A DNA stretch of 51,042 nt, taken from positions 1 to 51,042 of the forward strand of contig JAUCBJ010001567.1 in assembly GCA_032718475.1 (NCBI GenBank), written 5' to 3'. Origin of the DNA: Nemertoderma westbladi. Its lineage: Eukaryota; Animalia; Xenacoelomorpha. The notes beneath the pieces were generated by a model. That model saw only the letters and a list, made by a program, of their open reading frames with translations, was not told the DNA's origin and made no database searches. The translations under genes were made by a program, and so were the position numbers. Below are positions 4,411 to 45,644 of this stretch, piece by piece (the first letter of the stretch is position 1; the number at the start of each line of letters is the position of its first letter).

Positions 4411-4462
4411 CCAGACGGAAAGCAACACCCATAGGACTACTGGTTTGTCCTAATAGCCCGGT

Positions 4463-4907: not shown

Positions 4908-4961
4908 GTCCGACCGCAGGGCAACAGTTGAGACAGCGAGCGGTATCCGTATTCCAAGCTG

Positions 4962-12255: not shown

Positions 12256-12291
12256 AAATAACACCTACTTTAAGTTTATCCTTCTTACAGA

Positions 12292-12469
12292 ATGACGTCA
12301 CAACTTAACGAAGAGCAGATAGGAGAGTTCAAGGAGGCTTTCTCACTGTTCGACAAAGATGGCGACGGGACAATCACAACTAAGGAGTTGGGAACAGTGA
12401 TGAGGTCATTGGGGCAAAATCCAACAGAACAGGAGTTACAGGATATGATAAACGAGGTAGATTCAGATG
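12292..12469 (+). CDS. CaM: calmodulin, coding exon 1 (M1-D59 plus first base of G60)
   Basis: [59 protein letters not shown]. Acceptor cttcttacag at 12290, phase-1 donor G|gtgagt at 12470. The three exons total 450 nt = 149 aa plus stop. Confidence 0.95.
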
Positions 12470-12534
12470 GTGAGTTAATTACATGACTGTTAGAATTAAA
12501 TTAAAATTAAATTTTTCTTTACCAAAATAATATT

Positions 12535-15500
12535 TGACTGTGAGCCTACCCACCTAGAGCTGATTGAGCCTACCCAGCTAGAGCTGACTGTGAGCCTACC
12601 CAGCTAGAGCTGACTGTGAGCCTACCCAGCTAGAGCTGACTGTGAGCCTACCCAGCTAGAGCTGACTGTGAGCCTACCCAGCTAGAGCTGACTGTGAGCC
12701 TACCCAGCTAGAGCTGACTGGACCCTACCCACCTAGAGCTGACTAGACCCTACCCACCTAGAGCTGACTGGACCCTACCCACCTAGAGCTGACTGTGAGC
12801 CTACCCAGCTAGAGCTGACTGTGAGCCTACCCATATAGAGCTGACTGTGAGCCTACCCAGCTAGAGCTGACTGTGAGCCTACCCATATAGAGCTGACTGT
12901 GAGCCTACCCAGCTAGAGCTGACTGTGAGCCTACCCAGCTAGAGCTGACTGTGAGCCTACCCAGCTAGAGCTGACTGTGAGCCTACCCAGCTAGAGCTGA
13001 CTGGACCCTACCCACCTAGAGCTGACTAGACCCTACCCACCTAGAGCTGACTGGACCCTACCCACCTAGAGCTGACTGTGAGCCTACCCAGCTAGAGCTG
13101 ACTGTGAGCCTACCCATATAGAGCTGACTGTGAGCCTACCCAGCTAGAGCTGACTGTGAGCCTACCCATATAGAGCTGACTGTGAGCCTACCCAGCTAGA
13201 GCTGACTGTGAGCCTACCCAGCTAGAGCTGACTGTGAGCCTACCCAGCTAGAGCTGACTGTGAGCCTACCCAGCTAGAGCTGACTGGACCCTACCCACCT
13301 AGAGCTGACTAGACCCTACCCACCTAGAGCTGACTGGACCCTACCCACCTAGAGCTGACTGTGAGCCTACCCAGCTAGAGCTGACTGTGAGCCTACCCAT
13401 ATAGAGCTGACTGTGAGCCTACCCAGCTAGAGCTGACTGTGAGCCTACCCAGCTAGAGCTGACTGGACCCTACCCACCTAGAGCTGACTAGACCCTACCC
13501 ACCTAGAGCTGACTGGACCCTACCCACCTAGAGCTGACTGTGAGCCTACCCAGCTAGAGCTGACTGTGAGCCTACCCATATAGAGCTGACTGTGAGCCTA
13601 CCCAGCTAGAGCTGACTGTGAGCCTACCCTTATAGAGCTGACTGTGAGCCTACCCAGCTAGAGCTGACTGTGAGCCTACCCAGCTAGAGCTGACTGTGAG
13701 CTTACCCAGATAGAGCTGACTGTGAGCCTACCCACCTAGAGCTGACTGTGAGCCTACCCACCTAGAGCTGACTGTGAGCCTACCCACCTAGAGCTGACTG
13801 TGAGCCTACCCACCTAGAGCTGACTGAACCCTATCCACCTAGAGCTGACTGAACCCTATCCACCTAGAGCTGACTGGACCCTACCCACCTAGAGCTGACT
13901 GCGAGCCTACCAACCTAGAGCTGACTGTTGTGACCCTACCCACCTAGAGCTGACTGTGACCCTACCCAGCTAGAGCTGACTGTGAGCCTACCCACCTAGA
14001 GCTGAATGTGAGCCTACCCAGCTAGAGCTGACTGTGAGCCTACCAACCTAGAGCTGACTGTGAGCCTACCCAGCTAGAGCTGACTGGACCCTACCCAGCT
14101 AGAGCTGACTGTGAGCCTACCCACCTAGAGCTGACTGTGAGCCTACCCAGCTAGAGCTGACTGTTGTGACCCTACCCACCTAGAGCTGACTGTGAGCCTA
14201 CCCAGCTAGAGCTGACTGTGACCCTACCCACCTAGAGCTGACTGTGACCCTACCCAGCTAGAGCTGACTGTGAGCCTACCCACCTAGAGCTGACTTTTGA
14301 GCCTACCCAGCTAGAGCTGACTGTGACCCTACCCACCTAGAGCTGACTGTGACCCTACCCAGCTAGAGCTGACTGTGAGCCTACCCAGCTAGAGCTGACT
14401 GTGAGCCTACCCACCTAGAGCTGACTGTGAGCCTACCCAGCTAGAGCTGACTGTGAGCCTACCCACCTAGAGCTGAATGTGAGACTACCCAGCTAGAGCT
14501 GACTGAGCCTACCCAGCTAGAGCTGACTGTGACCCTACCCAGCTAGAGCTGACTGGACCCTACCCACCTAGAGCTGACTAGACCCTACCCACCTAGAGCT
14601 GACTGGACCCTACCCACCTAGAGCTGACTGTGAGCCTACCCAGCTAGAGCTCACTGTGAGCCTACCCATATAGAGCTGACTGTGAGCCTACCCAGCTAGA
14701 GCTCACTGTGAGCCTACCCATATAGAGCTGACTGTGAGCCTACCCAGCTAGAGCTGACTGTGAGCCTACCCAGATAGAGCTGACTGTGAGCTTACCCAGA
14801 TAGAGCTGACTGTGAGCCTACCCACCTAGAGCTGACTGTGAGCCTACCCACCTAGAGCTGACTGTGAGCCTACCCACCTAGAGCTGACTGTGAGCCTACC
14901 CACCTAGAGCTGACTGAACCCTATCCACCTAGAGCTGACTGAACCCTATCCACCTAGAGCTGACTGGACCCTACCCACCTAGAGCTGACTGCGAGCCTAC
15001 CAACCTAGAGCTGACTGTTGTGACCCTACCCACCTAGAGCTGACTGTGACCCTACCCAGCTAGAGCTGACTGTGAGCCTACCCACCTAGAGCTGAATGTG
15101 AGCCTACCCAGCTAGAGCTGACTGTGAGCCTACCAACCTAGAGCTGACTGTGAGCCTACCCAGCTAGAGCTGACTGGACCCTACCCAGCTAGAGCTGACT
15201 GTGAGCCTACCCACCTAGAGCTGACTGTGAGCCTACCCAGCTAGAGCTGACTGTTGTGACCCTACCCACCTAGAGCTGACTGTGAGCCTACCCAGCTAGA
15301 GCTGACTGTGACCCTACCCACCTAGAGCTGACTGTGACCCTACCCAGCTAGAGCTGACTGTGAGCCTACCCACCTAGAGCTGACTTTTGAGCCTACCCAG
15401 CTAGAGCTGACTGTGACCCTACCCACCTAGAGCTGACTGTGACCCTACCCAGCTAGAGCTGACTGTGAGCCTACCCAGCTAGAGCTGACTGTGAGCCTAC

Positions 15501-18500
15501 CCACCTAGAGCTGACTGTGAGCCTACCCAGCTAGAGCTGACTGTGAGCCTACCCACCTAGAGCTGAATGTGAGCCTACCCAGCTAGAGCTGACTGTGAGC
15601 CTACCCAGCTAGAGCTGACTGTGACCCTACCCACCTAGAGCTGACTGTGAGCCTACCCACCTAGAGCTGACTGTGAGCCTACCCACCTAGAGCTGAATGT
15701 GAGCCTACCCAGCTAGAGCTGACTGTGAGCCTACCCAGCTAGAGCTGACTGTGACCCTACCCACCTAGAGCTGACTGTGAGCCTACCCACCTAGAGCTGA
15801 ATGTGAGCCTACCCAGCTAGAGCTGACTGTGAGCCTACCCAGCTAGAGCTGACTGTGACCCTACCCACCTAGAGCTGACTGTGAGCCTACCCACCTAGAG
15901 CTGACTGTGAGCCTACCCACCTAGAGCTGACTGTGAGCCTACCCAGCTAGAGCTGACTGTGAGCCTACCCACCTAGAGCTGACTGTGAGCCTACCCACCT
16001 AGAACCTAGAGCTGACTGTGAGCCTACCAACCTAGAGCTGACTGTTGTGACCCTACCCACCTAGAGCTGACTGTGACCCTACCCAGCTAGAGCTGACTGT
16101 GAGCCTACCCACCTAGAGCTGACTTTTGAGCCTACCCAGCTAGAGCTGACTGTGAGCCTACCCAGCTAGAGCTGACTGTGAGCCTACCCACCTAGAGCTG
16201 ACTGTGAGCCTACCCATATAGAGCTGACTGTGAGCCTACCCAGCTAGAGCTGACTGTGAGCCTACCCACCTAGAGCTGACTGTGAGCCTACCCAGCTAGA
16301 GCTGACTGTGAGCCTACCCACCTAGAGCTGAATGTGAGCCTACCCAGCTAGAGCTGACTGTGAGCCTACCAACCTAGAGCTGACTGTTGTGACCCTACCC
16401 ACCTAGAGCTGACTGTGACCCTACCCAGCTATAGCTGACTGTGAGCCTACCCAGCTAGAGCTGACTGTGAGCCTACCCAGATAGAGCTGACTGTGAGCCT
16501 ACCCACCTAGAGCTGACTGTGAGCCTACCCACCTAGAGCTGACTGTGAGCCTACCCACCTAGAGCTGACTGTGAGCCTACCCAGCTAGAGCTGACTGGAC
16601 CCTACCCACCTAGAGCTGACTGAACCCTATCCACCTAGAGCTGACTGGACCCTACCCACCTAGAGCTGACTGTGAGCCTACCCAGCTAGAGCTGACTGGA
16701 CCCTACCCACCTAGAGCTGACTGTACCCTACCCACCTTGAGCTGACTGTGAGCCTACCCACCTAGAGCTGACTGTGACCCTACCCAGCTAGAGCTGACTG
16801 TGAGCCTACCCACCTAGAGCTGACTGTGAGCCTACCCAGCTAGAGCTGACTGTGAGCCTACCCAGCTAGAGCTGACTGTGAGCCTACCCACCTAGAGCTG
16901 ACTGTGAGCCTACCCAGCTAGAGCTGACTGTGAGCCTACCCAGATAGAGCTGACTGTGAGCCTACCCACCTAGAGCTGACTGTGAGCCTACCCACCTAGA
17001 GCTGACTGTGAGCATACCCATCTAGAGCTGACTGTGAGCCTACCCAGCTAGAGCTGACTGGACCCTACCCACCTAGAGCTGACTGAACCCTATCCACCTA
17101 GAGCTGACTGGACCCTACCCACCTAGAGCTGACTGTGAGCCTACCCACCTAGAGCTGACTGTGAGCCTACCCACCTAGAACCTAGAGCTGACTGTGAGCC
17201 TACCAACCTAGAGCTGACTGTTGTGACCCTACCCACCTAGAGCTGACTGTGACCCTACCCAGCTAGAGCTGACTGTGAGCCTACCCACCTAGAGCTGACT
17301 TTTGAGCCTACCCAGCTAGAGCTGACTGTGAGCCTACCCAGCTAGAGCTGACTGTGAGCCTACCCACCTAGAGCTGACTGTGAGCCTACCCATATAGAGC
17401 TGACTGTGAGCCTACCCAGCTAGAGCTGACTGTGAGCCTACCCACCTAGAGCTGACTGTGAGCCTACCCAGCTAGAGCTGACTGTGAGCCTACCCACCTA
17501 GAGCTGAATGTGAGCCTACCCAGCTAGAGCTGACTGTGAGCCTACCAACCTAGAGCTGACTGTTGTGACCCTACCCACCTAGAGCTGACTGTGACCCTAC
17601 CCACCTAGAGCTGACTGAACCCTATCCACCTAAAGCTGACTGGACCCTACCCACCTAGAGCTGACTGTGAGCCTACCCAGCTAGAGCTGACTGGACCCTA
17701 CCCTACTACTACTACTACTAGGATCGGCATGCTGCATTGCAGCTGCATTTTTAAGAATGCTGTGCCGGCTTGTCAACAAAATTGCACCGCCACAACTCCC
17801 TATCACCCATGACATTTGCAAGATCATCCGCATCTTTAAGGCCAGTGTCCTTTAAGATGCGTCTCAAGAAAGTCATGGGCTGTCCACCATGCTTATTCAC
17901 TCCATGAGGCTGCCAAAGTACAAGATTATGCACTGGCTGGTCCTCACGGCGAAAGCAATGTCCTGCAAAGCGGAGGCAATTTTGTTCTAGTGTCAAGCTT
18001 GGGGGAACCAATGAGACACCTCCAATGTTATATAGTGTCTTGTTGGAGATGTGTGCATTGTACTTGACACAATGTACCCGGCGTAGCATTCTTGTGAATG
18101 TGCCATCCAGAGATTTGGTGTCCTCAGCAGTTAGAGCCCAACATGGACTCCCGTAGAGGAGTACTGGAACTACTGCTGCTCTGAATAATCGGACCTTAAG
18201 TTTCCGATTAATTCTAGGTGACTTCCAAATCCTGGAAAGCCTATTCAAGGCTGCCCATGCCTTTCCCTTACGTATTCGAAGGTCCTCACCTGACTTCCGG
18301 ATCCATGATCCCAGGTAACAGAAGTCGTCCACATGCTCAAGCATACCATCCTTTGAGCTTATGCTCATCCGATCAGAGACTTGCTGAGGACTTTCAAAGT
18401 TAACTGTCAGAATTTTGGTCTTTCTGGAGTTAATAAAAAGACCAACACTAGAAGCAGCATGTTCTAATGAGCTGAGGAGCCGCTGGGCTCCCTCTAATGA

Positions 18501-19750
18501 TTCTGAGAGTACTCCTAAGTCATCAGCAAAGTCTAGATCAGTTTACCTACCCACCTTGAGCTGACTGTGAGCCTACCCACCTAGAGCTGACTGTGACCCT
18601 ACCCAGCTAGAGCTGACTGTGAGCCTACCCACCTAGAGCTGACTGTGAGCCTACCCAGCTAGAGCTGACTGTGAGCCTACCCAGATAGAGCTGACTGTGA
18701 GCCTACCCACCTAGAGCTGACTGTGAGCCTACCCACCTAGAGCTGACTGTGAGCCTACCCACCTAGAGCTGACTGTGAGCCTACCCAGCTAGAGCTGACT
18801 GGACCCTACCCACCTAGAGCTGACTGAACCCTATCCACCTAGAGCTGACTGGACCCTACCCACCTAGAGCTGACTGTGAGCCTACCCAGCTAGAGCTGAC
18901 TGGACCCTACCCACCTAGAGCTGACTGTACCCTACCCACCTTGAGCTGACTGTGAGCCTACCCACCTAGAGCTGACTGTGACCCTACCCAGCTAGAGCTG
19001 ACTGTGAGCCTACCCACCTAGAGCTGACTGTGAGCCTACCCAGCTAGAGCTGACTGTGAGCCTACCCAGCTAGAGCTGACTGTGAGCCTACCCACCTAGA
19101 GCTGACTGTGAGCCTACCCAGCTAGAGCTGACTGTGAGCCTACCCAGATAGAGCTGACTGTGAGCCTACCCACCTAGAGCTGACTGTGAGCCTACCCACC
19201 TAGAGCTGACTGTGAGCCTACCCATCTAGAGCTGACTGTGAGCCTACCCAGCTAGAGCTGACTGGACCCTACCCACCTAGAGCTGACTGAACCCTATCCA
19301 CCTAGAGCTGACTGGACCCTACCCACCTAGAGCTGACTGTGAGCCTACCCAGCTAGAGCTGACTGGACCCTACCCACCTAGAGCTGACTGGACCCTACCC
19401 ACCTAGAGCTGACTGTGAGCCTACCCACCTAGAGCTGACTGTGACCCTACCCAGCTAGAGCTGACTGTGAGCCTACCCACCTAGAGCTGACTGTGAGCCT
19501 ACCCAGCTAGAGCTGACTGTGAGCCTACCCAGCTAGAGCTGACTGTGAGCCTACCCACCTAGAGCTGACTGTGAGCCTACCCAGCTAGAGCTGACTGTGA
19601 GCCTACCCACCTAGAGCTGACTGTGAGCCTACCCACCTAGAGCTGACTGTGAGCCTACCCAGCTCGAGCTGACTGTGAGCCTACCCACCTAGAGCTGACT
19701 GTGAGCCTACCCAGCTAGAGCTGACTCTGAGCCAACCCCGATAGAGGTTG
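12535..19750. repeat. 25/26-bp minisatellite, about 6.4 kb net, with higher-order blocks, interrupted by a LINE
   Basis: Unit ctgtgagcctacccagctagagctga with variant ctggaccctacccacctagagctga. The rare variant gcgagcctaccaacc recurs at 13901 and 14991 (1090-bp duplication). Confidence 0.97.
17704..18543 (-). mobile_element. 5'-truncated RTE LINE, near-identical to 7803-8635, inserted in the 26-bp satellite
   Basis: Reverse complement of the RT C-terminus (DFADD...YLGSWIRK...DKPAQHS), same 3'UTR and (TAG)n tail. It lacks the stops at 8050 and 8305 of the other copy. Confidence 0.93.
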
Positions 19751-20818
19751 ATAATTATGCTATAATTGATGTTAACGACCCAAAATATGTCTAATATATA
19801 AGGAATTATAATTTGTTTCGATTATTGTTTTGGTTAGGGTTCATTTGGCAGGCCTGAACTCTAGTTATGACTGCAATGTTGTACCCCAACCCTAAGTCAT
19901 AAGATATTTAGTGGAATTCAGAATTCAAGACTTTATTTCCATTGCCACAGGAGGGAGGGGCGTGAATGGTAATAATGATATATTATAATAGCCCACCAGA
20001 TACGAGAGTTCAAACAGGATAAAAATTCAAGTTACTAAAAGGGAAATAATGTTATTTAAAGTAAATAATAATTATAATATCCAATAGTGGAATCAAATGA
20101 TAAACAATTAATAACGAACCCGGCGGTGGGGAAAAACAATTTAAGCGCACTAATAAATTAAATATGTATAAATATAACAAATAATTAAAATGGAAAATAA
20201 CACCAAAGTATAAATAGTTAAATATTGATTATAATAAATAATTGTTACGCTAAATAGCCACAAATACAATTAGAATGTTACAGAGATTAAACATGTAATT
20301 GAATACCAAGTTAATAATCAATACGGGGATCTGAATTATTAGTCGTACCGGTAACCTCTTGTATCTTCCTTAATAGCAGAAACAAAAAATAAATACGCTA
20401 TGGAGGTCGGGGGGGGGGGGGGGGGGGGGTAAATAAATACATAGCAACAAGGGTCTTATTAATAATTTTTATATAGCTAAACCATTAGAGGATCTGCTGT
20501 TTGAAACTTACACCCAAAAAAAGGTCCGCACTCTAGAAAAAGTATTCAAAATCTCTAAAGTGGCCAAAATTAAGCAGATTAATATATTCCCTGCCACTCG
20601 AATGGTACAGTACAGTACAGATAGTTACACAGACAGACAGACAGTACAGATAGGCCTATGAACAATGAACATCAACTGGGTTCTTAATAATTTACCTGAT
20701 AAGTTCCCTTAATAATTAATCATTAAATCACTACGATCAAAACCTTTCTTTTCGGTTTCCGAGGAAACCCAAAAGGAGCAGGATTCCATGTTGTAGATAA
20801 TGTTAGGGAAAGGAACAG

Positions 20819-20954
20819 GGGGCCGTCCAAGTATGACGTCAGCACTTTAGGGAGGGGGGGGGGGGGTCAACGCCTATCTGATGACATCTGATTTAGGGGA
20901 GGGAGGGGGTCAACATTTTGGGGAAAAGTGCAGACGTCATACTTGGACGGCCCC
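20819..20954. mobile_element. PIF/Harbinger-like MITE
   Basis: TIRs GGGGCCGTCCAAGTATGACGTC(A/T)GCACTTT, 3-bp TSD CAG (20816-20818 and 20955-20957). Confidence 0.8.
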
Positions 20955-21265
20955 CAGGTTAGAGTAGCATGATAATTTAACTAAACAATAAGCAAGAATC
21001 CACATCAAAGATAAGAATTAATTTTTAGAAATCATTCTTACAGAAAGAAACCTATCGGTTATTAATAACTCTGATAATTGTCAGTAATTTTTATATTAAT
21101 TATTGTAAAAGAGAAAGACGGTAAAAATACGCGTTTTTGGCTAAACTTTGGCCACTTTCCGAGATTTTTACCGGCTGTGCAAATTATAGTAATCCGCGGG
21201 CAAGAAATACGCATTTTGGCGCGTTCTAGAACAACCAACCCATCGGCACAATAAGGCAAGGGGAT

Positions 21266-22582
<1,317 letters not shown>

Positions 22583-24977
22583 TCATATAACATAATATTA
22601 CTAAAAAATATGTTACACTACTTCCTTTTTCCAGTCACAATTATTAAATAAACAACCGCACACGCCCACGTGATTGTTGTTGCGATTGTGACGCTCACCA
22701 CACTCTTTCCTGAGTGAGCCAGAATTTTTATTTTCGCTTACATTCTTTAGCTACAAGAGTTTGAAAAGATTGTCGCCGGCGAGATTGCACAAGTTACACC
22801 GCAGTTATTCTTCAACATTATATTGATTTGTTGGTACTAAAGCTGATATAAAAGAAAATAAATGGCCTCCAGCGAATGCAAATACATTCAAAATTGAACC
22901 TCATAATCTCAGGTATACCGTTTTTTTATTCGGTGACTTTACTCAATGTTTTACAAATTTGTAATGGTGGCTGCTCACAAAACATGGAAGTGTATGGGAT
23001 GGCTTGTAAAGTTAATGTTGTGGGTAACTCCACATATTTAGGAGTATTCACCTGTGGGGGGGAGGTTTCCCTTCGCCCAGAAAAAATCTTGCTGAGAAAG
23101 GAGAAAAAGCAAATTTTGCGTTGATAGTTAATTTTCCATAACTGATTTCAGTATGGCTTGTGATCTAATTAATGCCTTAGTTAAGCCTATTTTGACATAA
23201 GGGTGTGTAGTTTAGGGTTTTTATCCCTCAGCTGAACCATAACGCGTTTTATTAAAATTCTTTAAGAACCTGACTTGGAGAGAATGTAACAACAAAAAAC
23301 TTGATGGTCAACGGTTAATCTGGTATTTTTCGCTCGAAATTGATAAATACTGTAGAATTTTGGTTAAAAGATACTACTAAAGTGCAATGGCAAGTGCTAT
23401 AGATTAGTTAAACAGGCAGATATTTTGCAACTAAATAAACAAAATACTGGTTGGTAGACCACAGAATGGTGGAAACTGGGCGCGGGCGGCCCCGGCCCCC
23501 GAGCTCAATTTACTTAATAATCCGGGTTTTAGGGATATTAAGGCCGGAGTACCCTACCCCCCCTGAACACTTTTTTAAATGTCTATAATTTCTACTGAAA
23601 TTAAAATATTTTGATTTTATACAGTACCGGTAAGGGCTGTTAAAATATGGCCAAACATTTGTTTTTTTGAAAAATTTTCAAATTTCCAGTTTTCCCTCTA
23701 GCGGCCATTGAATGAAAAACAATATTTGCGGTTAAAATGCTACTAGTCATTCAATCTGAGGTGAAATTGTCCGAAACCGATTTTTTTCGAATTAGGGAAA
23801 TTTATCGGTTATCATTTTTTGTTTAGCGTTTTTATGAAAATTAATTAATATTTATTAATATTTTGAAAAATTTTAACAAAATTTTGGCTTTAATCTGAAA
23901 AATTGGTGGTAAAAAAAAAGAAATAAAAAAATTCCAACCGATAACTTTTAAGGAACTGCCGAAACCCTTTCGAATGAGCCAAAAATAAAGAAAATTGGTT
24001 AAAAAATGGCGGAGGAGTAGTGTTTTGAAAAATGTCACTCCGAGATAATTGCCTTCAAAGTTTAAACCTTCCCGCCAAAAGTGGCTGTCTGTGGTCTGGT
24101 TGGTTAATCATTTCTGGAACGAACGAAACGCATCACCGCGCTAAAACATTCATAATGGAGATTTTCGGGGTCGCCGATTTCATTTCTGATGTCAGTTTTA
24201 AGGTTTGGTGGAATCTAGTCTGTCTGTCTGTCGGTTGTCTGTCAGTCTTACAATTTGACTGACAGACCATCATACAGTGATGATGATACGGTGAGTGAAA
24301 ACTCACACCAGCATTTATCAATTTTCACTCTGTTCCAATCCATCCCCGGTTAAATTTCCATAGTGTATTCTCACTCCCGGTGTATTTTTTTGTATCTTCT
24401 ACAGTAGGCCTACCGGTACCGCCTACTTTTACTATATATAAATCTCCAGCGTGTGTTTGTATGTGTACTAGAGGTATCTGTGGTCGTTTGTTCGCTTAAC
24501 TGTAGGCTTATATCGAATTTAAATTATATTGAAATTTAAAATATCTTGGGCAGTTGGGGGTAAGAATACACGGTAATATTACATTTGAGGCACAGTGGTA
24601 AGAAATTTTCAAAAACTCATGAATTTAAATCGTGCTGCTCAAAGCGGAAAATCACATACCGGTAACTTAAAACTTTTTTTTTCTATGAAGTTACAAATAA
24701 TGGCAAAAATGGCCACTGGAGAAAGGAGTTTATCACTGTGCCCCAAATGTGATAGAACCGTCGTCTCAAATGTCTTGTACCTAAACATGTAGCTACCGGT
24801 ACCGGTAAGTGAGTTAACGGCGTAATAGTGGCAAGTACCAAAAATTAAGGGAAAGGAGCATGTGTTGGTGCTGTTTGCTAACCAAACAACCAAAACAATA
24901 AACGAAGGTATATATCTTATGCGACCGCTTTGAAATAGAGCTGTAACACCCAATCTGGGCTGTAACACTGCACCCAC

Positions 24978-25724
24978 CTGATGGGCTCTTGGGGACAGTT
25001 TCACGCCTCCGGATGGACTCCGCGTCCGAGTGTCTCCATGGCTACCCACACATTCTTCCTCTCGACCCTCGTAGACAACGGGGAAGAAGTTGGTCTCGAT
25101 GTCGTTCGAGGGTGTGCGGATCCCGATAATGAGCGGCGAGCCCCTCCGTGCGACCACGATCTCTTCCGGGAAGTGTTGCGACGAGAACGCCAACGCAAAC
25201 GCGCCGTCTAAATCCGCGACAACTTCTTCTACGATCTCCCGGAAGTTTAATGCATCTCCCTCCTTCACTTTGGAGTCGTAGATATACTTAGCGAACTTAA
25301 CTATAACTTCTGTGTCCGTCTCAGACTCAAACTCGTAGTTGTGTTTCTCGAGAAAATGTTTAAGTTCTTTAAAGTTGGAGATTATTCCATTGTGTACGAC
25401 GACGAACTGGTTCCCTGAGTCGGAGCGTTGCGGATGCGAGTTCACTTCGTTGGGCTCCCCGTGGGTAGCCCAACGAGTGTGGGCCAACCCTACGTGGGTC
25501 GGTAGCTTCTCCGAGTATTTGATGCTCGAGTTCTCCAGAACCCGCGAGCGTAAAGCGTTCACTCGGCCGCGCTGTTTGAGAATGTCGATGGGTTGGTTAA
25601 ACGAGATTCCAGCAGAGTCGTAACCACGGTACTCCATTCGTTCCAATGCTTTTATTAAACATTCTAGAATGTCCCCTCTTGTCTTGGGTGTAAAATAGTT
25701 AAGATACGCAAAAATTCCGCACAT
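24978..25724 (-). CDS. GFPT: glutamine--fructose-6-phosphate aminotransferase, exon 1 (Ntn glutaminase domain)
   Basis: MCGIFAYLNY (catalytic Cys), EYRGYDSAG, AHTRWATHG, NSHPQRSD, HNGII, ETDTE, RRGSPL. Donor CAG|GTGGGT at 24977 after 249 codons. Joined protein is 678 aa. Confidence 0.93.
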
Positions 25725-26768
25725 ATTTCTGTATTTCAGTATTTATATCTCTGTATCTGTACAGCTGTATAATACTGATATATGGCTACAGTCAGACTGT
25801 CACCCACTGTACGACTGTTTGTCAGTTTGTTGTGGATGTGGATTATTGTGATATTTCTGTATTTTATACTGTTATATGAACTATGCCCTATACTGCTATA
25901 AGCAACCCAACCGCAACCACGCCAACCACATAACTAGACAGCTAGATACAAGATATCACCTATCACAGTAATTATAATTCAGTAATTATAAATTAAGCCT
26001 TACAAGATAAAATTATGTCACTAAAATATAACCCAGAACCAATGGCAGAATGGTAGCGTGGTGACTAGCAAGAGTGCGGATAGCATAAGTACAGGCCGCC
26101 TATCTTACATCCATAAACCAATAGGCCATACCAATAATCCTCAGGCATTTCATTATAACTGTGTTTGTGTTGGAAATTAATAACGCAATGGAATCTGTCT
26201 CTAAATTATCACTGTATGTAAGTAAGTACTGTATTTGATTACTGGACAGTTGAACAAATAGATTAGTGGTTTTATAATCCGTTTGTTGGCAAACTCTCAG
26301 TGATTAGGAATTACACGGGTGACGGCAGGCAAAGCAATAAGGAAAACGGTAGCTCACGCATTAGCCTTTTCAGTTACACTAAACTCCGTTTGTTTGGTGG
26401 CGTTTCCCAATGTCGACAGGGTCTCTGAGGCTACCAGGTTACATGCGTGGAGTGGCGGTTTTTATGGCGGCTCTCTCCGTTCTCTCTATCTGACAAATCT
26501 GTGCTTGAGATTAAGTAATTAGTACAGTAGTTTAGTTACTGAAGTGTTTCGCTGGAAGTCGAATTCAAAACATGTGAATTGTTTTTTTGCAAACTGAACC
26601 GCAAGTTTAATACAGTATGTATAAAACTTACAGAAAAACATAAAATATTGTACAGTATGTTTAATACAATATCATCACTTATACGGTATTAGAACTAAAC
26701 GTTTATATCTGTATTTCTCATTGTCAACCCCTATTTATCATTGATAACCCCCTCATTTCTCTCCAAAG

Positions 26769-26930
26769 GAAACGGTACGATCGACTTCCCAGAATTCCTT
26801 ACACTGATGGCGAGAAAACTTCAAGACCAAGATTCCGAGGAGGAAATCAAGGAGGCATTCCGAGTCTTCGACAAGGACGGTAATGGGTTCATATCGGCAG
26901 CGGAGCTCCGTCATGTTATGACGAACTTAG
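26769..26930 (+). CDS. CaM: calmodulin, coding exon 2
   Basis: Acceptor ctccaaag, (G)[53 protein letters not shown](G), donor G|gtaggt. 162 nt, phases match. Confidence 0.95.
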
Positions 26931-27282
26931 GTAGGTTTATGGCGGATTGTCAGCTCTGCCTTCCACTAGAAAAGGGCGGGCTCCTTCCAGTGCAGAGTTA
27001 ACCCAACCCAGCCTTATGGGACACCTTCCGGCTTCTTAGTAAGAAATTCGTTGGTGAAATGGAGCTTTCGGGATGCATGTAGTATAGATGAGCCTTCGCA
27101 TTGCCTCCGGTAGAGAGGAGGTGTTCCTCCAGTAAAGTGTTACCTTTGTGGTGCTTCCCTTGTAGATGATCCTTTGCCCCCCCCCCCCCCCCCCCCCCCC
27201 ATTAGAGATGAGCTTTCGGACTGTCTCAGATGTTTCGGGATCAAGATCGCTGATAACTTTACTTATTTTAAAATAAAGCAAC

Positions 27283-28660
<1,378 letters not shown>

Positions 28661-33353: not shown

Positions 33354-33528
33354 ATGCCGGACCTTAGTGACGAACAAATAACTGAATTTAAAGAGGCCTT
33401 CCTTCGTTTTGATAAAGAAGGAGAAGGGAAGATGGCGACCAAGCAGTTGGGGACCTTGATGCGGAGTTTGGGACAAAGTCCGACGGAAGGAGAACTCCGA
33501 GCAATGTTAGAATTCGTAGATCCAACAG
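33354..33528 (+). CDS. calmodulin-like EF-hand protein, exon 1
   Basis: [58 protein letters not shown], phase-1 donor G|gtaag at 33529, same position as in CaM. Confidence 0.9.
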
Positions 33529-33665
33529 GTAAGAGTCAAACATATGCTGAAGGGGAACACAACAATTTATAGTTACCATTTCAATTACGTCGCAGCTGAT
33601 ATTAATTTTCCCTAATTCTTCCAATTACTTTCAATTTCAGTTTCAATTACTCTCTAAAATTTCAG

Positions 33666-33827
33666 GAGGCAATACAATCGACTTTCCACAGTTTTGTAAC
33701 CTAATGGAGGAGCACATGAAACCGCCGAAAAGTTCAGAAGAAATCAAGGAATGTTTCAGAGTATTTGATAGAGAACATAACGGATATATACCTGTTGACA
33801 AACTGCGAAATGCCCTCACATCTCAAG
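33666..33827 (+). CDS. calmodulin-like EF-hand protein, exon 2
   Basis: Acceptor tttcag, (G)GNTIDFPQFCNLMEEHMKPPKSSEEIKECFRVFDREHNGYIPVDKLRNALTSQ(G), donor AAG|gtaatt at 33828. 162 nt, the same length as CaM exon 2. Confidence 0.9.
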
Positions 33828-36800
33828 GTAATTAATGACGTCAGGGCCTCACATCTCAAGGTAATTAATGACGTCAAGGCCTCACATCTCAAGGTAATTA
33901 ATGACGTCAAGGCCTCAGATCTCAAGGAAATTAATGATGTGAAGGCCTCACATCTCAAGGTAATTAATGACGTCAAGGCCTCACATCTCAGGTAATTAAT
34001 GACGTCAAAGCCTCACATCTCAAGGTAATTAATGACATCAGGGCCTCACATCTCAAGGTAATTAATGACGTCAGGGCCTTACATCTCAAGGTAATTAATG
34101 ACGTCAGGGCCTTACATCTCAAGGTAATTAATGACGTCAGGGCCTCACATCTCTAGGTAATTAATGACGTCAAGGCCTCACATCTCAAGGTAATTAATGA
34201 CGTCAGGGCCTCACATCTCAAGGTAATTAATGACATCAGGGCCTCACATCTCAAGGTAATTAATGACGTCAAGGCCTCACATCTCAAGGTAATTAATGAC
34301 GTCAAGGCATCACATCTCAAGGTAATTAATGACGTCAAGGCATCACATCTCAAGGTAATTAATGACATCAGGGCCTCACATCTCAAGGTAATTAATGAGG
34401 TCAAGGCCTCAGATCTCAAGGTAATTAATGACGTCAAGGCCTCACATCTAAAGGTAATTAATGAGGTCAAGGCCTCACATCTCAAGGTAATTAATGACGT
34501 CAAGGCCTCAGATCTCAAGGTAATTAATGATGTGAAGGCCTCACATCTCAAGGTAATTAATGACGTCAAGGCCTCACATCTCAAGGTAATTAATGACGTC
34601 AAGGCATCACATCTCAAGGTAATTAATGACATCAGGGCCTCACATCTCAAGGTAATTAATGACGTCAGGGCCTTACATCTCAGGGTAATTAATGACGTCA
34701 GGGCCTTACATCTCAAGGTAATTAATGGCATCAGGGCCTCACATCTCAAGGTAATTAATGACGTCAGGGCCTTACATCTCAGGGTAATTAATGACGTCAG
34801 GGCCTTACATCTCAAGGTAATTAATGGCATCAGGGCCTTACATCTCAGGGTAATTAATGACGTCAAGGCCTCAGATCTCAAGGTAATTAATGATGTGAAG
34901 GCCTCACATCTCAAGGTAATTAATGACGTCAAGGCCTCACATCTCAAGGTAATTAATGACGTCAAGGCCTCACATCTCAAGGTAATTAATGACGTCAAGG
35001 CCTCAGATCTCAAGGTAATTAATGATGTGAAGGCCTCACATCTCAAGGTAATTAATGACGTCAAGGCCTCACATCTCAAGGTAATTAATGACGTCAAGGC
35101 ATCACATCTCAAGGTAATTAATGACATCAGGGCCTCACATCTCAAGGTAATTAATGACGTCAAGGCCTTACATCTCAAGGTAATTAATGAGGTCAAGGCC
35201 TCAGATCTCAAGGTAATTAATGACGTCAAGGCCTCACATCTCAAGGTAATTAATGACGTCAAGGCCTCACATCTCAAGGTAATTAATGACGTCAAGGCCT
35301 CAGATCTCAAGGTAATTAATGATGTGAAGGCCTCACATCTCAAGGTAATTAATGACGTCAAGGCCTCACATCTCAAGGTAATTAATGACGTCAAGGCCTC
35401 ACATCTCAAGGTAATTAATGACGTCAAGGCCTCACATCTCAAGGTAATTAATGAGGTCAAGGCCTCAGATCTCAAGGTAATTAATGACGTCAAGGCCTCA
35501 CATCTCAAGGTAATTAATGACGTCAAGGCCTCACATCTCAAGGTAATTAATGAGGTCAAGGCCTCAGATCTCAAGGTAATTAATGACGTCAAGGCCTCAC
35601 ATCTCAAGGTAATTAATGGCATCAAGGCCTCACATCTCAAGGTAATTAATGACATCAGGGCCTCACATCTCAAGGTAATTAATGACGTCTGGGCCTTACA
35701 TCTCAAGGTAATTAATGACGTCAGGGCCTTACATCTCAAGGTAATTAATGACGTCAGGGCCTCACATCTCAAGGTAATTAATGACGTCAAGGCCTCACAT
35801 CTCAAGGTAATTAATGACGTCAGGGCCTCACATCTCAAGGTAATTAATGACGTCAGGGCCTTACATCTCAGGGTAATTAATGACGTCAGGGCCTTACATC
35901 TCAAGGTAATTAATGGCATCAGGGCCTCACATCTCAAGGTAATTAATGACGTCAGGGCCTTACATCTCAGGGTAATTAATGACGTCAAGGCCTCACATCT
36001 CAAGGTAATTAATGACGTCAAGGCCTCACATCTCAAGGTAATTAATGACGTCAAGGCATCACATCTCAAGGTAATTAATGACATCAGGGCCTCACATCTC
36101 AAGGTAATTAATGACGTCAGGGCCTTACATCTCAAGGTAATTAATGATGTGAAGGCCTCACATCTCAAGGTAATTGATGACGTCAGGGCCTTACATCTCA
36201 AGGTAATTAATGACATCAAGGCCTCACATCTCAAGGAAATTAATGACGTCAAAGCCTCACATCTCAAGGTAATTAATGACGTCAAGGCCTTACATTTTAA
36301 GGTAATTAATGACGTCAGGGCCTTACATCTCAAGGTAATTAATGGCGTCAGGGCCTTACATCTCAATGTAATTAATGACGTCAGGGCCTTACATCTCAAG
36401 GTAATTAATGACGTCAGGGCCTTACATCTCAAGGTAATTCATGACGTCAAGGCCTGACATCTCAAGGTGATTAATGACGTCAAGGCCTTACATCTCAAGG
36501 TGATTAATGACGTCAGGGCCTTACATCTCAAGGTAATTAATGACGTCAGGGCCTTACATCTCAGGGTAATTAATGACGTCAGGGCCTTACATCTCAAGGT
36601 AATTAATGACGTCAAGGCCTCAGATCTCAAGGTAATTAATGACGTCAAGGCCTCACATCTCAAGGCAATTAATGACGTCAGGGTCTTACATCTCAAGGTA
36701 ATTAATGACGTCAGGGCCTCAGATCTCAAGGTAATTAATGACGTCAGGGCCTTACATCTCAAGGTAATTAATGATGTGAAGGCCTCACATCTCAAGGTAA

Positions 36801-39176
36801 TTGATGACGTCAGGGCCTCACATCTCAAGGTAATTAATGACGTCAGGGCCTTACATCTCAAGGTAATTAATGACGTCAGGGTCTTACATCTCAAGGTAAT
36901 TAATGACGTCAGGGCCTCACATCTCAAGGTAATTAATGACGGCAAGGCCTCACATCTCAAGGTAATTAATGACGTCAAGGCCTCACATCTCAAGGCAATT
37001 AATGACGTCAGGGTCTTACATCTCAAGGTAATTAATGACGTCAGGGCCTCACATCTCAAGGTAATTAATGACGTCAGGGCCTTACATCTCAAGGTAATTA
37101 ATGACGTCAGGGCCTTACATCTCAAGGTAATTAATGATGTGAAGGCCTCACATCTCAAGGTAATTGATGACGTCAGGGCCTCACATCTCAAGGTAATTAA
37201 TGACGTCAAAGCCTTACATCTCAAGGTAATTAATGACGTCAGGGCCTTACATCTCAAGGTAATTAATGACGTCAGGGCCTTACATCTCAAGGTAATTAAT
37301 GATGTGAAGGCCTCACATCTCAAGGTAATTGATGACGTCAGGGCCTCACATCTCAAGGTAATTAATGACGTCAGGGCCTTACATCTCAAGGTAATTAATG
37401 ACGTCAGGGTCTTACATCTCAAGGTAATTAATGACGTCAGGGCCTCACATCTCAAGGTAATTAATGACGGCAAGGCCTCACATCTCAAGGTAATTAATGA
37501 CGTCAGGGCCTTACATCTCAAGGTAATTAATGACGTCAGGGCCTTACATCTCAAGGTAATTAATGATGTGAAGGCCTCACATCTCAAGGTAATTGATGAC
37601 GTCAGGGCCTCACATCTCAAGGTAATTAATGACGTCAGGGCCTTACATCTCAAGGTAATTAATGACGTCAGGGCCTTACATCTCAAGGTAATTAATGACG
37701 TCAGGGCCTTACATCTCAGGGTAATTAATGACGTCAGGGCCTTACATCTCAAGGTAATTAATGACGTCAAGGCCTCAGATCTCAAGGTAATTAATGACGT
37801 CAAGGCCTCACATCTCAAGGCAATTAATGACGTCAGGGTCTTACATCTCAAGGGAATTAATGACGTCAGGGCCTCACATCTCAAGGTAATTAATGACGTC
37901 AGGGTCTTACATCTCAAGGTAATTAATGACGTCAAGGCCTCACATCTCAAGGTAATTAATGACGGCAAGGCCTCACATCTCAAGGTAATTAATGACGGCA
38001 AGGCCTCAGATCTCAAGGTAATTAATGACGTCAGGGCCTTACATCTCAAGGCAATTAATGACGTCAGGGTCTTACATCTCAAGGTAATTAATGACGTCAG
38101 GGCCTTACATCTCAAGGTAATTAATGACGTCAGGGCCTCACATCTCAAGGTAATTAATGACGTCAGGGCCTTACATCTCAAGGTAATTAATGACGTCAGG
38201 GTCTTACATCTCAAGGTAATTAATGACGTCAAGGCCTCACATCTCAAGGTAATTAATGACGGCAAGGCCTCACATCTCAAGGTAATTAATGACGTCAGGG
38301 CCTCACATCTCAAGGTAATTAATGACGTCAGGGCCTTACATCTCAAGGTAATTAATGACGTCAGGGTCTTACATCTCAAGGTAATTAATGACGTCAGGGC
38401 CTTACATCTCAAGGTAATTAATGACGTCAGGGCCTCACATCTCAAGGTAATTAATGACGTCAGGGCCTTACATCTCAAGGTAATTAATGACGTCAGGGTC
38501 TTACATCTCAAGGTAATTAATGACGTCAAGGCCTCACATCTCAAGGTAATTAATGACGGCAAGGCCTCACATCTCAAGGTAATTAATGACGGCAAGGCCT
38601 CAGATCTCAAGGTAATTAATGACGTCAGGGCCTTACATCTCAAGGCAATTAATGACGTCAGGGTCTTACATCTCAAGGTAATTAATGTCGTCACGGCCTC
38701 ACATCTCAAGGTAATTAATGACGTCAAGGCCTTACATCTCAAGGTAATTAATGACGTCAAGGCCTTACATCTCAGGTAATTAATTACGTCAGGGCCTTAC
38801 ATCTCAAGGTAATTAATGACGTCAGGGCCTCACATCTCAAGGTAATTAATGATGTCAAGGCCTTACATCTCAGGTAATTAATTACGTCAAGGCCTGACAT
38901 CTCAAGGTAATTGATGACGTCAGGGCCTCACATCTCAAGGTAATTTATGACGTCAGGGCCTCACATCTCTAGGTAATTAATGACGTCAGGGCCTCTCATC
39001 TCATGGTAATTAATGACGTCAGGGCCTTACATCTCAAGGTAATTAATGACGTCAGGGCCTCACATCTCAAGGTAATTAATGACGTCAGGGCCTCAGATCT
39101 CAAGGTAATTAATGACGTCAAGGCATCACATCTCAAGGTAATTAATGACGTCAGGGCCTTGCATCTCAAGGTAATT
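33813..39176. repeat. 33-bp minisatellite, about 160 copies, containing the exon 2/intron junction
   Basis: Unit gtaattaatgacgtca(a/g)ggcctcacatctcaag. The first copy overlaps the coding exon and the last ends aag|gtaatt at 39170/39171. Confidence 0.97.
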
Positions 39177-39346
39177 GTCAAAGTTTCTTGTCAAAGGTTC
39201 GAAAGAGTCATTATACTCCTTTCCCTCAATTGATAACAACAACATTCATTGTTTGGTTAGAACATTATAATATAAAAATAAAAATTATAATATATTATTG
39301 TTTTCCCATGTTGTTTCTCCTTTGAAACATATTTTCGACTCTGTAA

Positions 39347-39537
39347 GGCCGCGTTCACACTACTGAGTCAAAGTCAAAAGACAAAATGTAAAACATAATC
39401 ACAAGAAATGTAATTTGTTCTAGAATGCCCTTATGTATTATATTAGGCCTACATAATGTATTATTATTTATTATTGCTAGCTAGCTATATTTAATTTATT
39501 TTGACTTTGACTTTGACTCGTTAGTGTAAACGCGGCC
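39347..39537. mobile_element. Tourist/PIF-Harbinger-like MITE
   Basis: ~40-bp TIRs GGCCGCGTT(C/T)ACACTA..GAGTCAAAGTCAAA, TSD TAA at 39344-39346 and 39538-39540. Confidence 0.85.
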
Positions 39538-39554
39538 TAACATGTCGTTTTGAC

Positions 39555-39720
39555 ACTTTGACTCGGTCGAACCTTTGACTCGGTCGACCCTTTGACTTGG
39601 TCGAACTTTTGACTCGGTCGACCTTTTGTCTTGGTCGACCTTTTGACTCGGTCACCTTTGATTCGGTCGACCCTTTGACTCGGTCGAACCTTTGTCTGTT
39701 TTGACCCTTTGACTTGACCT
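39555..39720. repeat. ~17-bp tandem repeat (ctttgactcggtcgaac)
   Basis: About nine degenerate copies. Confidence 0.85.
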
Positions 39721-39812
39721 GAAATATTTCATCATAAGAAGATATTAAAAATGAATTATTTCGCAAAATTATTGCATTTGGTATTTAATGAGGATTCTTT
39801 AGAATTAGCTAA

Positions 39813-40232
39813 ATTATTATAACTTTTTGTTGGGCACAACTTTTGCAAAGTCGGCAATGACGTCCAGGTGGGATCGAACTGGTGAACTCCGGGTTGAAAG
39901 TCTGACGCTCTAACCATTCAGCTACCGGCTCAGCGAGTGGTTAAAGACGGCCAAGTACTGTAGGGTTGAGCACAGTGGCAGCAGATGATGGTATTGACAG
40001 ATGGGAGGCCATGAGGTGGTAAATTGCTGACATACAAGGTGTCAGATACTATTTCCAGGTCTATCTTTTACCTGAGCCGCTAGCTGAATGTTCAGAGCGT
40101 CAGACTTTCAACCCTGAGGTCACCAGTTCGATCCCACTTGGACGCCATTGCCGACTTTTCAAAAGCTGTGCCCAACAAAAAGTTATAATAATAGGAAACC
40201 ACTCATTCACCCGTAACACCAATAATAAATTA
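39813..40232. mobile_element. tRNA-derived SINE-like element with two inverted heads (39813-39933 on -, 40072-40192 on +)
   Basis: Each arm has an A-box-like TAGCTGAATG, a tRNA-Lys-like agagcgtcagactttcaa and a B-box GTTCGATCC, but acceptor and T stems do not pair. A 13-bp direct repeat tagctaaattatt lies at 39806 and 40233. Confidence 0.7.
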
Positions 40233-40326
40233 TAGCTAAATTATTGGAGTGCAAAATAAAAGGCGGGTCGTTCACTTACTTTACTTTATGGAACACAATA
40301 ACGTCCTTTTCTTATTTATCTTTCAG

Positions 40327-40433
40327 GAGATTCCCTCAATGAAGCTGAAATCGAAGAATTAATACGAGAATCAGATATCGATGGAGACGGGATGATACGT
40401 TATTCAGAGTTCGTGGACAGAATGATAGATTAA
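40327..40433 (+). CDS. calmodulin-like EF-hand protein, last exon
   Basis: Acceptor tatctttcag, (G)DSLNEAEIEELIRESDIDGDGMIRYSEFVDRMID*. Three exons total 444 nt = 147 aa plus stop. Not in the ORF track. Confidence 0.9.
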
Positions 40434-40786
40434 CTAGATTGCTTAGTTATTTACGCTTGTAGTGTATAAATATTTAGATTAAAATAATTACAATATATTT
40501 AATAGTAACAAGTTGCATTGCATATTAATTATCGTGTTTATAAATATAAAACATGTGACATCTTCAGTTCAAGGTTGCCAACAATACAAAATCATCTGCG
40601 TAAGTTTACACAACGCGATTGAGCGAACTTAGGGTTCTCATTTTAAAGTTGAAGTTGAACAGCATTGATAACTATAGTAACAATGCTATATTCTATAATC
40701 CCGCATAAACAGTGTCGCTAAATCTAAAGCTATAGCTACTCGGAGGCCCTTTAACTAGCAGTTTAAGATACCCGTACTGGTTCAAC

Positions 40787-41329
40787 ATGCCAACAACTAT
40801 TAAGGAAGCAATCATCCAATGGGAACATAGAAATGATGGAATTAAAGCTAGCGAGAGCGCAGTTGTGAAACTAAACGGCATATATCCACCAATAGAGAAG
40901 ATGGACCCAGGTCTCACTCATTTGAGTATGTGTGAGCAACTCAGTCTGAGCACCAACTGTATTGAAAAAATATCCCATCTAAACGGTCTGAAACGTCTCA
41001 AAATTCTGAGTCTCGGTAGGAACTTAATTAAGAGTTTAAACGGATTGGAACCACTTCGAGATACTTTGGAACAGCTGTGGATGTCCTACAACTTCGTGGA
41101 ACACTTGAAAGGTATCCATATGTTTAAGAAACTAGAAGTTCTGTATATTAGTTTCAACCTGATTAAAGATATCAAAGATCTCCACGCAATACCGAGTCTT
41201 GTCGAGTTGGTTATGGTTGGTAACCCCGTCGAGGTTCGGATGACCGAAGAAGGAACCTGGAGAGAGGAAGTTACGAAAAAACTTCCTGGACTTAAGAAAC
41301 TTGACGGAGAAAATATTATGAAGCTATAG
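40787..41329 (+). CDS. DNAL1: dynein axonemal light chain 1 (LC1, leucine-rich repeat), intronless
   Basis: [58 protein letters not shown] are DNAL1 signature motifs. AATAAA at ~41373. Confidence 0.93.
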
Positions 41330-41640
41330 TAAAATTATAACGGTTTTTATAACTTTTGTAAACTCACTACATAAATAAATAGATGTGCTATTGTGCGCTT
41401 ACCTCATAGTGATATAAAGTTAGAATGGTTAATGAACTATTATTTGATTGGACGTTGAAATCATGTAAGGAATAGTGAGAGGGGTCGAACTAGGTTGAAC
41501 CTGTAATATACTTTATTCCAAAATTGTAACATTACTCAACGCCGTTGTAGTAACAGCGAGTTGTTATATAACACTTTACAACTTTAGAGGACATTACAGC
41601 ATTGTATTGGCCTGTACATTTAGTATTGTATTTGGTGTTA

Positions 41641-45463: not shown

Positions 45464-45644
45464 CTCTACTCCCCATACGTCTCCGTCTGGCCTTACACTA
45501 TAGGCATAATCTAATAAGTTATGGACTACAACACTGAAGGAAATAGATGGTACTGTATATTTGATTCGTAATCATATCCTGTTGTTATGCCGGTATTCTT
45601 ATGTTAGTCATTAAATCCTAGTGGGGTGGGGTTCATTGGAAGAA

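What the first reader, a model, noticed from the sequence alone, without database searches (positions are those of the whole stretch)
33813..39176. A satellite made of a live splice junction: about 160 tandem AG|GT sites inside a calmodulin-like gene
Seen: the 33-bp unit is the last ~14 nt of exon 2 (cctcacatctcaag), the donor GTAATT and a 13-nt linker. The real donor at 33828 is copied about 160 times and the last copy (39171) runs into unique intron. Read from GT, each unit is GTAATTAATGACGTCAGGGCCTCACATCTCAAG, a GT...AG cassette joined to the next by a zero-length exon. Splicing from the first donor to any internal AG regenerates an identical exon|GT junction. Using any later donor instead retains CAA GGT AAT TAA, an immediate in-frame stop that removes the only intact EF-hand. 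Established: AG|GT is the recursive-splicing ratchet motif and the proto-splice site of intron gain by tandem duplication. Inference: this intron is removed stepwise, or it needs strict first-donor choice against ~160 equal decoys, or it works as a copy-number-tunable NMD/expression dial.
Basis: partly seen in the sequence, partly recalled or inferred. Interest (0 to 1): 0.85.

Follow-up and report, generated by a model that had tools for sequence, protein, structure and literature searches.

The report
Splice-donor "mirage" repeat in calmodulin-like gene
In an animal's calmodulin-like gene, a 33-base piece covering an exon end and its splice signal is repeated about 162 times into the next intron, yet a contig that is likely mRNA joins through the first signal, so this is likely an ordinary, tolerated example of a repeat type already known from lancelet and human genes rather than a splicing ladder or an expression dial.

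Summary
A 33-bp minisatellite (33814-39176, 162.6 copies) starts in the last 14 nt of exon 2 of a calmodulin-like gene and repeats its donor; 145 of 162 internal junctions read AG|GT. DNA contigs from a second individual hold the repeat at high depth, so it is not an assembly invention; its length is unverified.

One run that behaves as RNA gives a single contig spliced from the first donor (33827) to exon 3 (40327).

Recursive splicing is poorly supported: 0 of 162 internal sites meet a published minimal motif, and the splice dinucleotides vary as freely as the rest of the unit. The intron was not gained by the duplication, because the neighbouring true calmodulin has it at the same position. 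About 45% of the window is tandem repeat.

The arrangement is known: human F7, CBS, 6-16 and lamin B2 minisatellites, and lancelet "mirages". This scan has noted many larger cases elsewhere in this genome and in other genomes (unchecked notes). Low-level use of later donors, hidden by NMD, is not excluded.

Side findings: an intronless DNA copy of the gene, and a contig that runs on into a dynein light chain 1 gene.

The parts
33354..33528 (+). Exon 1 (coding part) of the calmodulin-like gene
   Evidence: covered by X4 contig 25 from 33286
33529..33665 (+). Intron 1, 137 nt, GT..AG, phase 1; same position as intron 1 of the true calmodulin
   Evidence: joint 'skips 137' in all 4 runs
33666..33827 (+). 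Exon 2, 162 nt; its last 14 nt start the array
33814..39176 (+). 33-bp minisatellite, 162.6 copies: 14 nt of exon end, GTAATT donor, 13-nt filler; 154 of 162 downstream copies keep GT
   Evidence: array contigs in X1-X3
33828..33833 (+). First (authentic) donor of intron 2, the one used in the likely mRNA
   Evidence: X4 contig joins 33827 to 40327
39177..40326 (+). Non-array part of intron 2: a 17-bp array (39556-39714), nested inverted repeats, and a T-rich acceptor ending in CAG
40327..40437 (+). Exon 3 (coding part, stop at 40431-40433 region), encoding EF-hand 4
40787..41329 (+). Intronless dynein axonemal light chain 1-like ORF, lying on the same X4 contig as the spliced gene
   Evidence: E 1.4e-61 to 8j07_m3
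12292..28660 (+). True calmodulin paralog used as internal control (exons 12292-12469, 26769-26930, 28551-28660): same two intron positions, each intron holding an unrelated minisatellite

Best explanation
This is a minisatellite whose unit spans the exon 2/intron 2 donor of a calmodulin-like gene (a 'mirage' of the F7 type); it likely arose by a small local duplication in an old intron and likely grew by ordinary repeat turnover in a repeat-rich genome, and the spliceosome likely takes the first donor and removes the 6.5-kb intron in one step, leaving the other copies as tolerated, mostly silent decoys. Shown: the array and its unit, its presence in a second individual, the shared intron position with the paralog, and a contig with the first-donor junction. 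Inferred: that this contig is mRNA of the array-bearing gene; birth from a 20-nt direct repeat (exon end plus GTAATT) around a 13-nt filler; growth by slippage or unequal exchange; first-donor choice because only the first donor closes an exon with a real upstream acceptor (exon definition, or the 5'-to-3' scanning proposed for F7). Selection probably acts as a filter: such an array survives because the first copy still gives normal mRNA.
For: (1) X4 gives one 1,514-nt contig (depth 863.5) lying on 33286-33525, 33663-33828 and 40325-41432. Its loose end before exon 3 is the true exon 2 end, not an array unit. (2) AG|GT is not protected: 6 minor alleles over the 4 splice-dinucleotide positions against 27 over the other 29, in 159 full-length units; one-sided P for fewer = 0.90; donor 9-mer 8 of 33 alleles over 9 of 33 positions, P = 0.43. 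(3) Internal AGs are poor acceptors: 0 of 162 meet Y5+N0-4YAGGT (motif from PMC10156609); the longest pyrimidine run before them is 4 in 159 of 162, against 6-10 in 5 of 5 true acceptors in the window. (4) Repeat-turnover signature: 44 unit variants in repeated blocks (the longest 7 units), mean 1.6 differences per unit. (5) Background: 45% of the window is tandem array and 3 of its 5 introns hold arrays; the paralog's intron 1 array carries 162 donor-like words on the sense strand without spanning its donor. (6) Precedent: F7, lamin B2 and PDGF use only the first donor (PMC1557585); lancelet mirages do not disturb splicing (PMC3087553; PMC3902484).
Against: X4 is listed as 'DNA?'; that it is RNA is my inference from its behaviour. 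It is one run from a third sample for which no DNA was seen, so I do not know that this animal carries the array. Contigs drop rare forms, and transcripts from donor 2 onward have the stop 58 nt or more before the junction, so NMD could hide them. An intronless DNA copy also supplies the joined junctions; in X2/X3 it begins at 33471, whereas the X4 contig begins at 33286. The internal AG is not impossible as an acceptor: 1 of 5 true acceptors here ends in AAG, the strict motif catches only 3 of 5 true acceptors, and the unit has branch-point-like words 22-25 nt before the AG (branch consensus recalled). The allele test has little power (33 alleles) in a young, homogenised array. In CBS and 6-16 the next two donors are also used (PMC1557585).
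Confidence: 0.84

Rival explanations
1. Leaky decoys acting as a copy-number dial: later donors are used at a rate that grows with array length, the products carry a stop right after exon 2 and are removed by NMD, so array length tunes the gene's output.
For: 154 of 162 downstream copies keep GT; all give an in-frame stop, and from donor 2 on the stop lies 58 nt or more before the junction. CBS and 6-16 use two extra donors (PMC1557585). ABCA7 VNTR length correlates with lower expression and exon skipping (review PMC11095487). An unchecked note on GALNS in this genome reports use of an internal variant donor.
Against: The X4 contig passes the junction unbroken through the first donor. In F7, distal copies did not compete even when strengthened to a consensus value of 91. 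The donor 9-mer shows no protection. The exon-2 contigs of the second individual carry a frameshift at codon 98, which fits relaxed selection better than a tuned dial, although it is not known which copy bears it. No data link length to expression.
Confidence: 0.07
2. Recursive (ratchet) splicing: the intron is removed in steps from the first donor to internal AG|GT sites, each step rebuilding the donor.
For: 145 of 162 junctions are AG|GT and would rebuild the same junction. Branch-point-like words sit 22-25 nt upstream and AAG acceptors exist in this organism. [quoted passage not shown]
Against: 0 of 162 meet the minimal motif; only 5 are YAG|GT; pyrimidine runs are of 4. No protection of AG|GT, whereas fly sites show twice the conservation of control AGGT, usually one site per intron and segments nearly all over 1 kb (PMC6110457). 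One unit (33 nt) is shorter than usual animal introns (recalled), and its branch-like word overlaps the preceding donor. AG|GT here follows automatically from copying an exon that ends in AG together with its donor.
Confidence: 0.05
3. The array-bearing gene is dead or dying (crippled by the array or simply dispensable), and the spliced contig comes from an array-free allele or a longer intronless copy.
For: An intronless copy exists in DNA in 2 of 2 DNA samples, and the X2/X3 exon-2 contigs carry a 4-nt insertion. Three of four EF loops lack E12. The array status of the X4 animal is unknown.
Against: The window's copy has an intact 147-aa frame and canonical splice sites. The X4 contig has no insertion, starts 185 nt upstream of the intronless copy's 5' end in X2/X3, and continues into the gene's own 3' neighbour. 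Both DNA samples carry the array.
Confidence: 0.03
4. Assembly artefact: the array is absent or only a few copies long.
For: No piece spanning the array was listed.
Against: Array contigs at summed depth about 150-200 times the flank in two samples (the tool warns that this is no copy number); 44 unit variants in ordered blocks.
Confidence: 0.01

Closest known systems
Human F7 intron 7 37-bp VNTR, with the 6-16 (IFI6), CBS intron 13, lamin B2 and PDGF intron 4 minisatellites it cites (Borensztajn et al. 2006, PMC1557585; I saw the abstract, passages of introduction and results, and the whole discussion; the other four genes only through its introduction)
   Same: First unit spans the exon/intron boundary; the donor is reiterated in the intron; the first donor is the one mainly used.
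   Different: About 162 copies here against 5-26 there; an invertebrate host; the exon ends in AG, so each junction is AG|GT; no direct assay of minor donors here.
Lancelet 'mirage' minisatellites (Adh3, globins BflGb6 and BflGb9, troponin C, PGBD5); PMC3087553 and PMC3902484, passages seen; supplements not read
   Same: Tandem copies of an exon/intron boundary inside the intron, many keeping AG/GT signals, unit 10-160 bp, normal mRNA still made, common within one genome.
   Different: Copy number far higher (3-6 units given for BflGb6); length polymorphism not measured here.
Recursive splice (ratchet) sites of fly and human (PMC6110457, PMC10156609; passages seen)
   Same: AG|GT inside an intron that would rebuild a donor.
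   Different: No pyrimidine tract, mostly AAG rather than YAG, no sign of conservation, 33-nt spacing, 145 sites rather than one or a few; no intermediates shown.
Intron gain by tandem genomic duplication of exonic AGGT (review PMC3443670, passages seen; PMC4974935, search listing only)
   Same: Tandem duplication that includes AG|GT.
   Different: Here the intron is older than the array (shared with the paralog), the unit includes intron sequence, and the working acceptor lies in non-array DNA 1.15 kb past the array.

Membership tests
Junction-spanning minisatellite (mirage / F7-type VNTR) | Head-to-tail repeat of minisatellite unit size | tested here: met
   33 bp x 162.6, 93% matches
Junction-spanning minisatellite (mirage / F7-type VNTR) | Terminal unit spans a real exon/intron boundary | tested here: met
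   14 nt of exon 2 plus donor; junction used in the X4 contig; same intron in the paralog
Junction-spanning minisatellite (mirage / F7-type VNTR) | Splice signal reiterated in many but not all copies | tested here: met
   154 of 162 keep GT; 145 of 162 keep AG|GT
Junction-spanning minisatellite (mirage / F7-type VNTR) | Normal mRNA still made from the authentic site | tested here: met
   One contig in one likely-RNA run; minor forms not visible in contigs; array status of that animal unknown
Junction-spanning minisatellite (mirage / F7-type VNTR) | Copy number varies between alleles | tested here: inconclusive
   Array present in two samples at similar summed depth; contig depth is no copy number
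Recursive splice site | Functional 3' splice site (pyrimidine tract plus YAG) directly before GT | tested here: not met
   0 of 162 meet Y5+N0-4YAGGT; longest pyrimidine run 4 in 159 of 162; the motif also misses 2 of 5 true acceptors
Recursive splice site | AG|GT more conserved than its surroundings | tested here: not met
   6 minor alleles at 4 positions against 27 at 29; P = 0.90; within-array test only, low power
Recursive splice site | Ratchet junction reads, lariats or saw-tooth cover in nascent RNA | not testable with these tools
   Only contigs were available, and a first-donor-to-internal-AG read looks like unspliced RNA in short reads
Intron gained by tandem duplication of exonic AGGT | Intron is new and bounded by the duplicated AG|GT copies | tested here: not met
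   Paralog has the intron at the same codon and phase, with exon 2 of 162 nt in both; the acceptor lies outside the array

The most novel reading that the evidence does not exclude
In this animal, giant splice-junction satellites are not silent: internal AG|GT copies are used, as recursive stepping stones or as leaky NMD-coupled donors, so that heritable array length sets how much calmodulin-like (and possibly co-transcribed dynein light chain 1) mRNA is made, a repeat-length dial built from the gene's own splice junction.
Probability: 0.1. Interest if true: 0.7.

Novelty: new member of a known kind. Interest (0 to 1): 0.2.

Why it matters
Taken alone this is one more, mid-sized example of a described oddity. 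Its value is as a natural test of 5' splice-site choice: about 154 near-identical donors over 5 kb, against 5-26 in the human cases, in an invertebrate. If the scan's unchecked notes hold, this genome has dozens of such arrays on donors and acceptors, so the genome-wide pattern (how they are seeded, and how accurate splicing stays) is the more worthwhile question than this locus.

Tried and rejected
No whole genome is held, so I could not count junction-spanning arrays genome-wide, build species splice-site profiles or locate the intronless copy. No RNA holder was listed by the run search; this is no evidence either way. X4 showed no cover on the array units, on intron 1 or on the end of intron 2; contigs drop rare forms, so I do not count this against internal donor use. 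Lineage: the GFAT C-terminal part is 70-74% identical to many animals with no close relative among the 120 listed of 4,916 hits; exon 1 gave generic calmodulins at 56-67%; so 'an animal, lineage unresolved'. RNA folding of 200 nt around the first donor and around internal donors gave stronger pairing inside the array (-56.4 against -37.7 kcal/mol); there was no shuffle control and the composition differs, so I draw nothing from it. Source of the 13-nt filler: the best match elsewhere in the window is 10 nt at 12291, which is chance level; rejected. The array is unrelated to the window's other arrays. One search used paralog and GFAT splice coordinates that were 1-2 nt off; these were corrected and do not affect the chance estimate. 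Literature searches that found no report of recursive splicing in a tandem array, or of arrays this long in an invertebrate: (open-access library only, word matching; not proof of absence). A look-up for earlier notes on a calmodulin-like/DNAL1 unit found none, and none were near this place.
Full report
Observation. Tandem Repeats Finder reports 33814-39176, period 33, 162.6 copies, 93% matches. The host is a three-exon calmodulin-like gene (33354-33528, 33666-33827, 40327-40437; 147 aa), with EF-hand Pfam hits in all three exons. The unit is the last 14 nt of exon 2, GTAATT and a 13-nt filler. Of 162 internal junctions, 138 read AAG|GTAATT, 145 keep AG|GT and 154 keep GT. Any later donor gives Gly-Asn-stop and drops EF-hand 4, the only loop with D1, D3, D5 and E12 (loop rules recalled).

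Is it real? No genome is held. The run search listed 8 runs, 4 of which hold the stretch, from 3 samples. In X1, X2 and X3, contigs of the repeat unit sum to depths of about 3,900-5,000 against 21-28 on single-copy flank. X1 may be the source of the assembly. X2 and X3 are one other sample, which differs from the window by substitutions and indels. So the array exists in at least one independent individual. No listed piece spans it, so the copy number rests on the assembly.

Which donor is used? X4 is listed as 'DNA?' but behaves as RNA, which is my inference. It gives one 1,514-nt contig (depth 863.5) that starts 68 nt before the ATG, skips intron 1 exactly (GT..AG), runs from the end of exon 2 into exon 3 and ends 58 nt after the only AATAAA in the region. 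Its loose end in front of exon 3 is the true exon 2 end, not an array unit. The main product therefore uses the first donor. Four limits apply: it is one run; contigs drop rare forms; NMD could remove later-donor products (stop 25 nt before the junction for donor 1, 58 nt or more for the rest); and no DNA of that animal was seen.

A complication. The joined junctions also stand in the DNA runs: the intron 1 joint at depth 19, 8.2 and 11.9 in X1-X3, and the exon 2-3 join in X1 and X3. In X2 and X3 a contig enters exon 1 at 33471 from foreign sequence. This is most simply a 5'-truncated processed copy, and a reverse-transcriptase ORF lies at 29882-31369. The X4 contig includes 33286-33470, upstream of that start, so it is better explained by the gene itself. 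The X2/X3 exon-2 contigs also carry a 4-nt insertion behind 33783, a frameshift at codon 98. I cannot tell whether the gene or the copy bears it.

Recursive splicing. A published minimal motif, Y5+N0-4YAGGT (PMC10156609, passages), is met by 0 of 162 internal sites. Only 5 are YAG|GT, and the longest pyrimidine run before the AG is 4 in 159 of 162, against 6-10 in 5 of 5 true acceptors of the window. Against my reading: the strict motif catches only 3 of the 5 true acceptors, one true acceptor ends in AAG, and the unit has branch-point-like words 22-25 nt upstream. Fly recursive sites are conserved about twofold over control AGGT, are mostly single, and cut segments nearly all over 1 kb (PMC6110457, passages). 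Here the four splice-dinucleotide positions carry 6 minor alleles and the other 29 positions carry 27, in the 159 full-length units (3 shorter units left out); P for fewer is 0.90. The test is weak but shows no protection. AG|GT follows automatically from copying an exon that ends in AG together with its donor.

Intron gain. A true calmodulin lies upstream (12292-28660; 78 of 147 residues identical, ungapped). It has the same two introns in phase 1 and the same 162-nt exon 2. The intron is therefore older than the array.

Background. Twelve arrays longer than 150 bp, picked from the 33 rows by dropping short and nested rows, cover 22,799 of 51,042 bases. Three of the five introns I identified in the window hold arrays, including both introns of the true calmodulin. 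One of the eleven arrays with period 10 or more is seeded on a splice site, where a rough null expects 0.06-0.13. A scan of many windows will find such cases without any special mechanism, though I could not test for genome-wide excess.

Mechanism. The array begins and ends with the same 20-nt junction word, which fits birth from a short direct repeat around a 13-nt filler (inferred). Forty-four unit variants in repeated blocks, with 1.6 differences per unit on average, fit growth by slippage or unequal exchange (inferred). Only the first donor closes an exon that has a real acceptor upstream. [quoted passage not shown] I infer the same here, with selection acting only as a filter.

Comparison with what is known. 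PMC1557585 lists F7, 6-16, CBS, lamin B2 and PDGF as genes with minisatellites whose first unit spans an exon/intron boundary; CBS and 6-16 also use two further donors. Lancelet cases are called mirages and are reported not to disturb splicing (PMC3087553; PMC3902484; passages only, supplements not read). A length-dependent effect of an intronic VNTR on expression and splicing is reported for ABCA7 (review PMC11095487, passages). My searches found no paper on recursive splicing within a tandem array or on arrays of this length in invertebrates (open-access library only).

Earlier notes of this scan. These are unchecked AI notes and not evidence. 71 findings in at least 32 genomes matched my words. 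In this genome, 52 and 58 of 78 notes fitted the donor and acceptor look-ups, with arrays of up to about 2,100 copies, some in essential genes. They gave me the term 'mirage' and its papers, which I then read. One note reports use of an internal donor in GALNS, which keeps the leaky-decoy rival alive.

Verdict. A real, correctly described feature and a new member of a known kind. Silent decoys with first-donor choice 0.84; length-dependent NMD leak 0.07; recursive splicing 0.05; dead gene 0.03; artefact 0.01. Interest 0.2.

Noticed in passing
window 33286-41432: One X4 contig carries the spliced calmodulin-like frame, the 349-nt gap and the whole intronless DNAL1-like frame (40787-41329). The only AATAAA is at 41374, with an ATTAAA at 40478. 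Possibly a two-gene transcript of ciliary proteins (a calmodulin-like chain and LC1 both occur in outer-arm dynein; recalled); a contig does not prove one transcript.
   Followed up: partly
window 33471-33828 and exon 3 (runs X1-X3): An intronless DNA copy of the calmodulin-like gene: both joined junctions stand in DNA runs, with a foreign flank before 33471 in X2/X3. Likely a 5'-truncated processed copy; its location and 3' end are unknown.
   Followed up: partly
window 33783 (runs X2, X3): 4-nt insertion in the exon-2 contig of the second individual, a frameshift at codon 98; absent from X1 and X4. It may be a null allele or belong to the intronless copy.
   Followed up: partly
window 21266-25722 (-) inside 12470-26768 (+): A GFAT (glutamine-fructose-6-phosphate aminotransferase) gene with a single intron found is nested on the opposite strand inside intron 1 of the true calmodulin.
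   Followed up: partly
window 12535-19746 and 27281-28539: Both introns of the true calmodulin hold unrelated minisatellites close to splice sites: a 26-bp array starting about 65 nt after the donor, with 162 donor-like words on the sense strand, and a 30-bp array ending about 11 nt before the acceptor.
   Followed up: partly
window 39190-40192: The non-array part of intron 2 holds nested inverted repeats (arms of 121 nt at 93%, 37 nt at 89%) and a 17-bp array with an inverted partial copy just after the 33-bp array's end; probably transposon-derived.
   Followed up: no
window 29882-31369 (+) and about 7200-8590: A reverse-transcriptase ORF of 495 aa (RVT_1, E 6e-33), probably a truncated non-LTR element; a similar-looking, decayed stretch near 7200-8590 was seen by eye only.
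   Followed up: no
window 42852-45073 and 45635-45970: The same 21-bp unit forms two arrays in opposite orientation about 560 nt apart.
   Followed up: no
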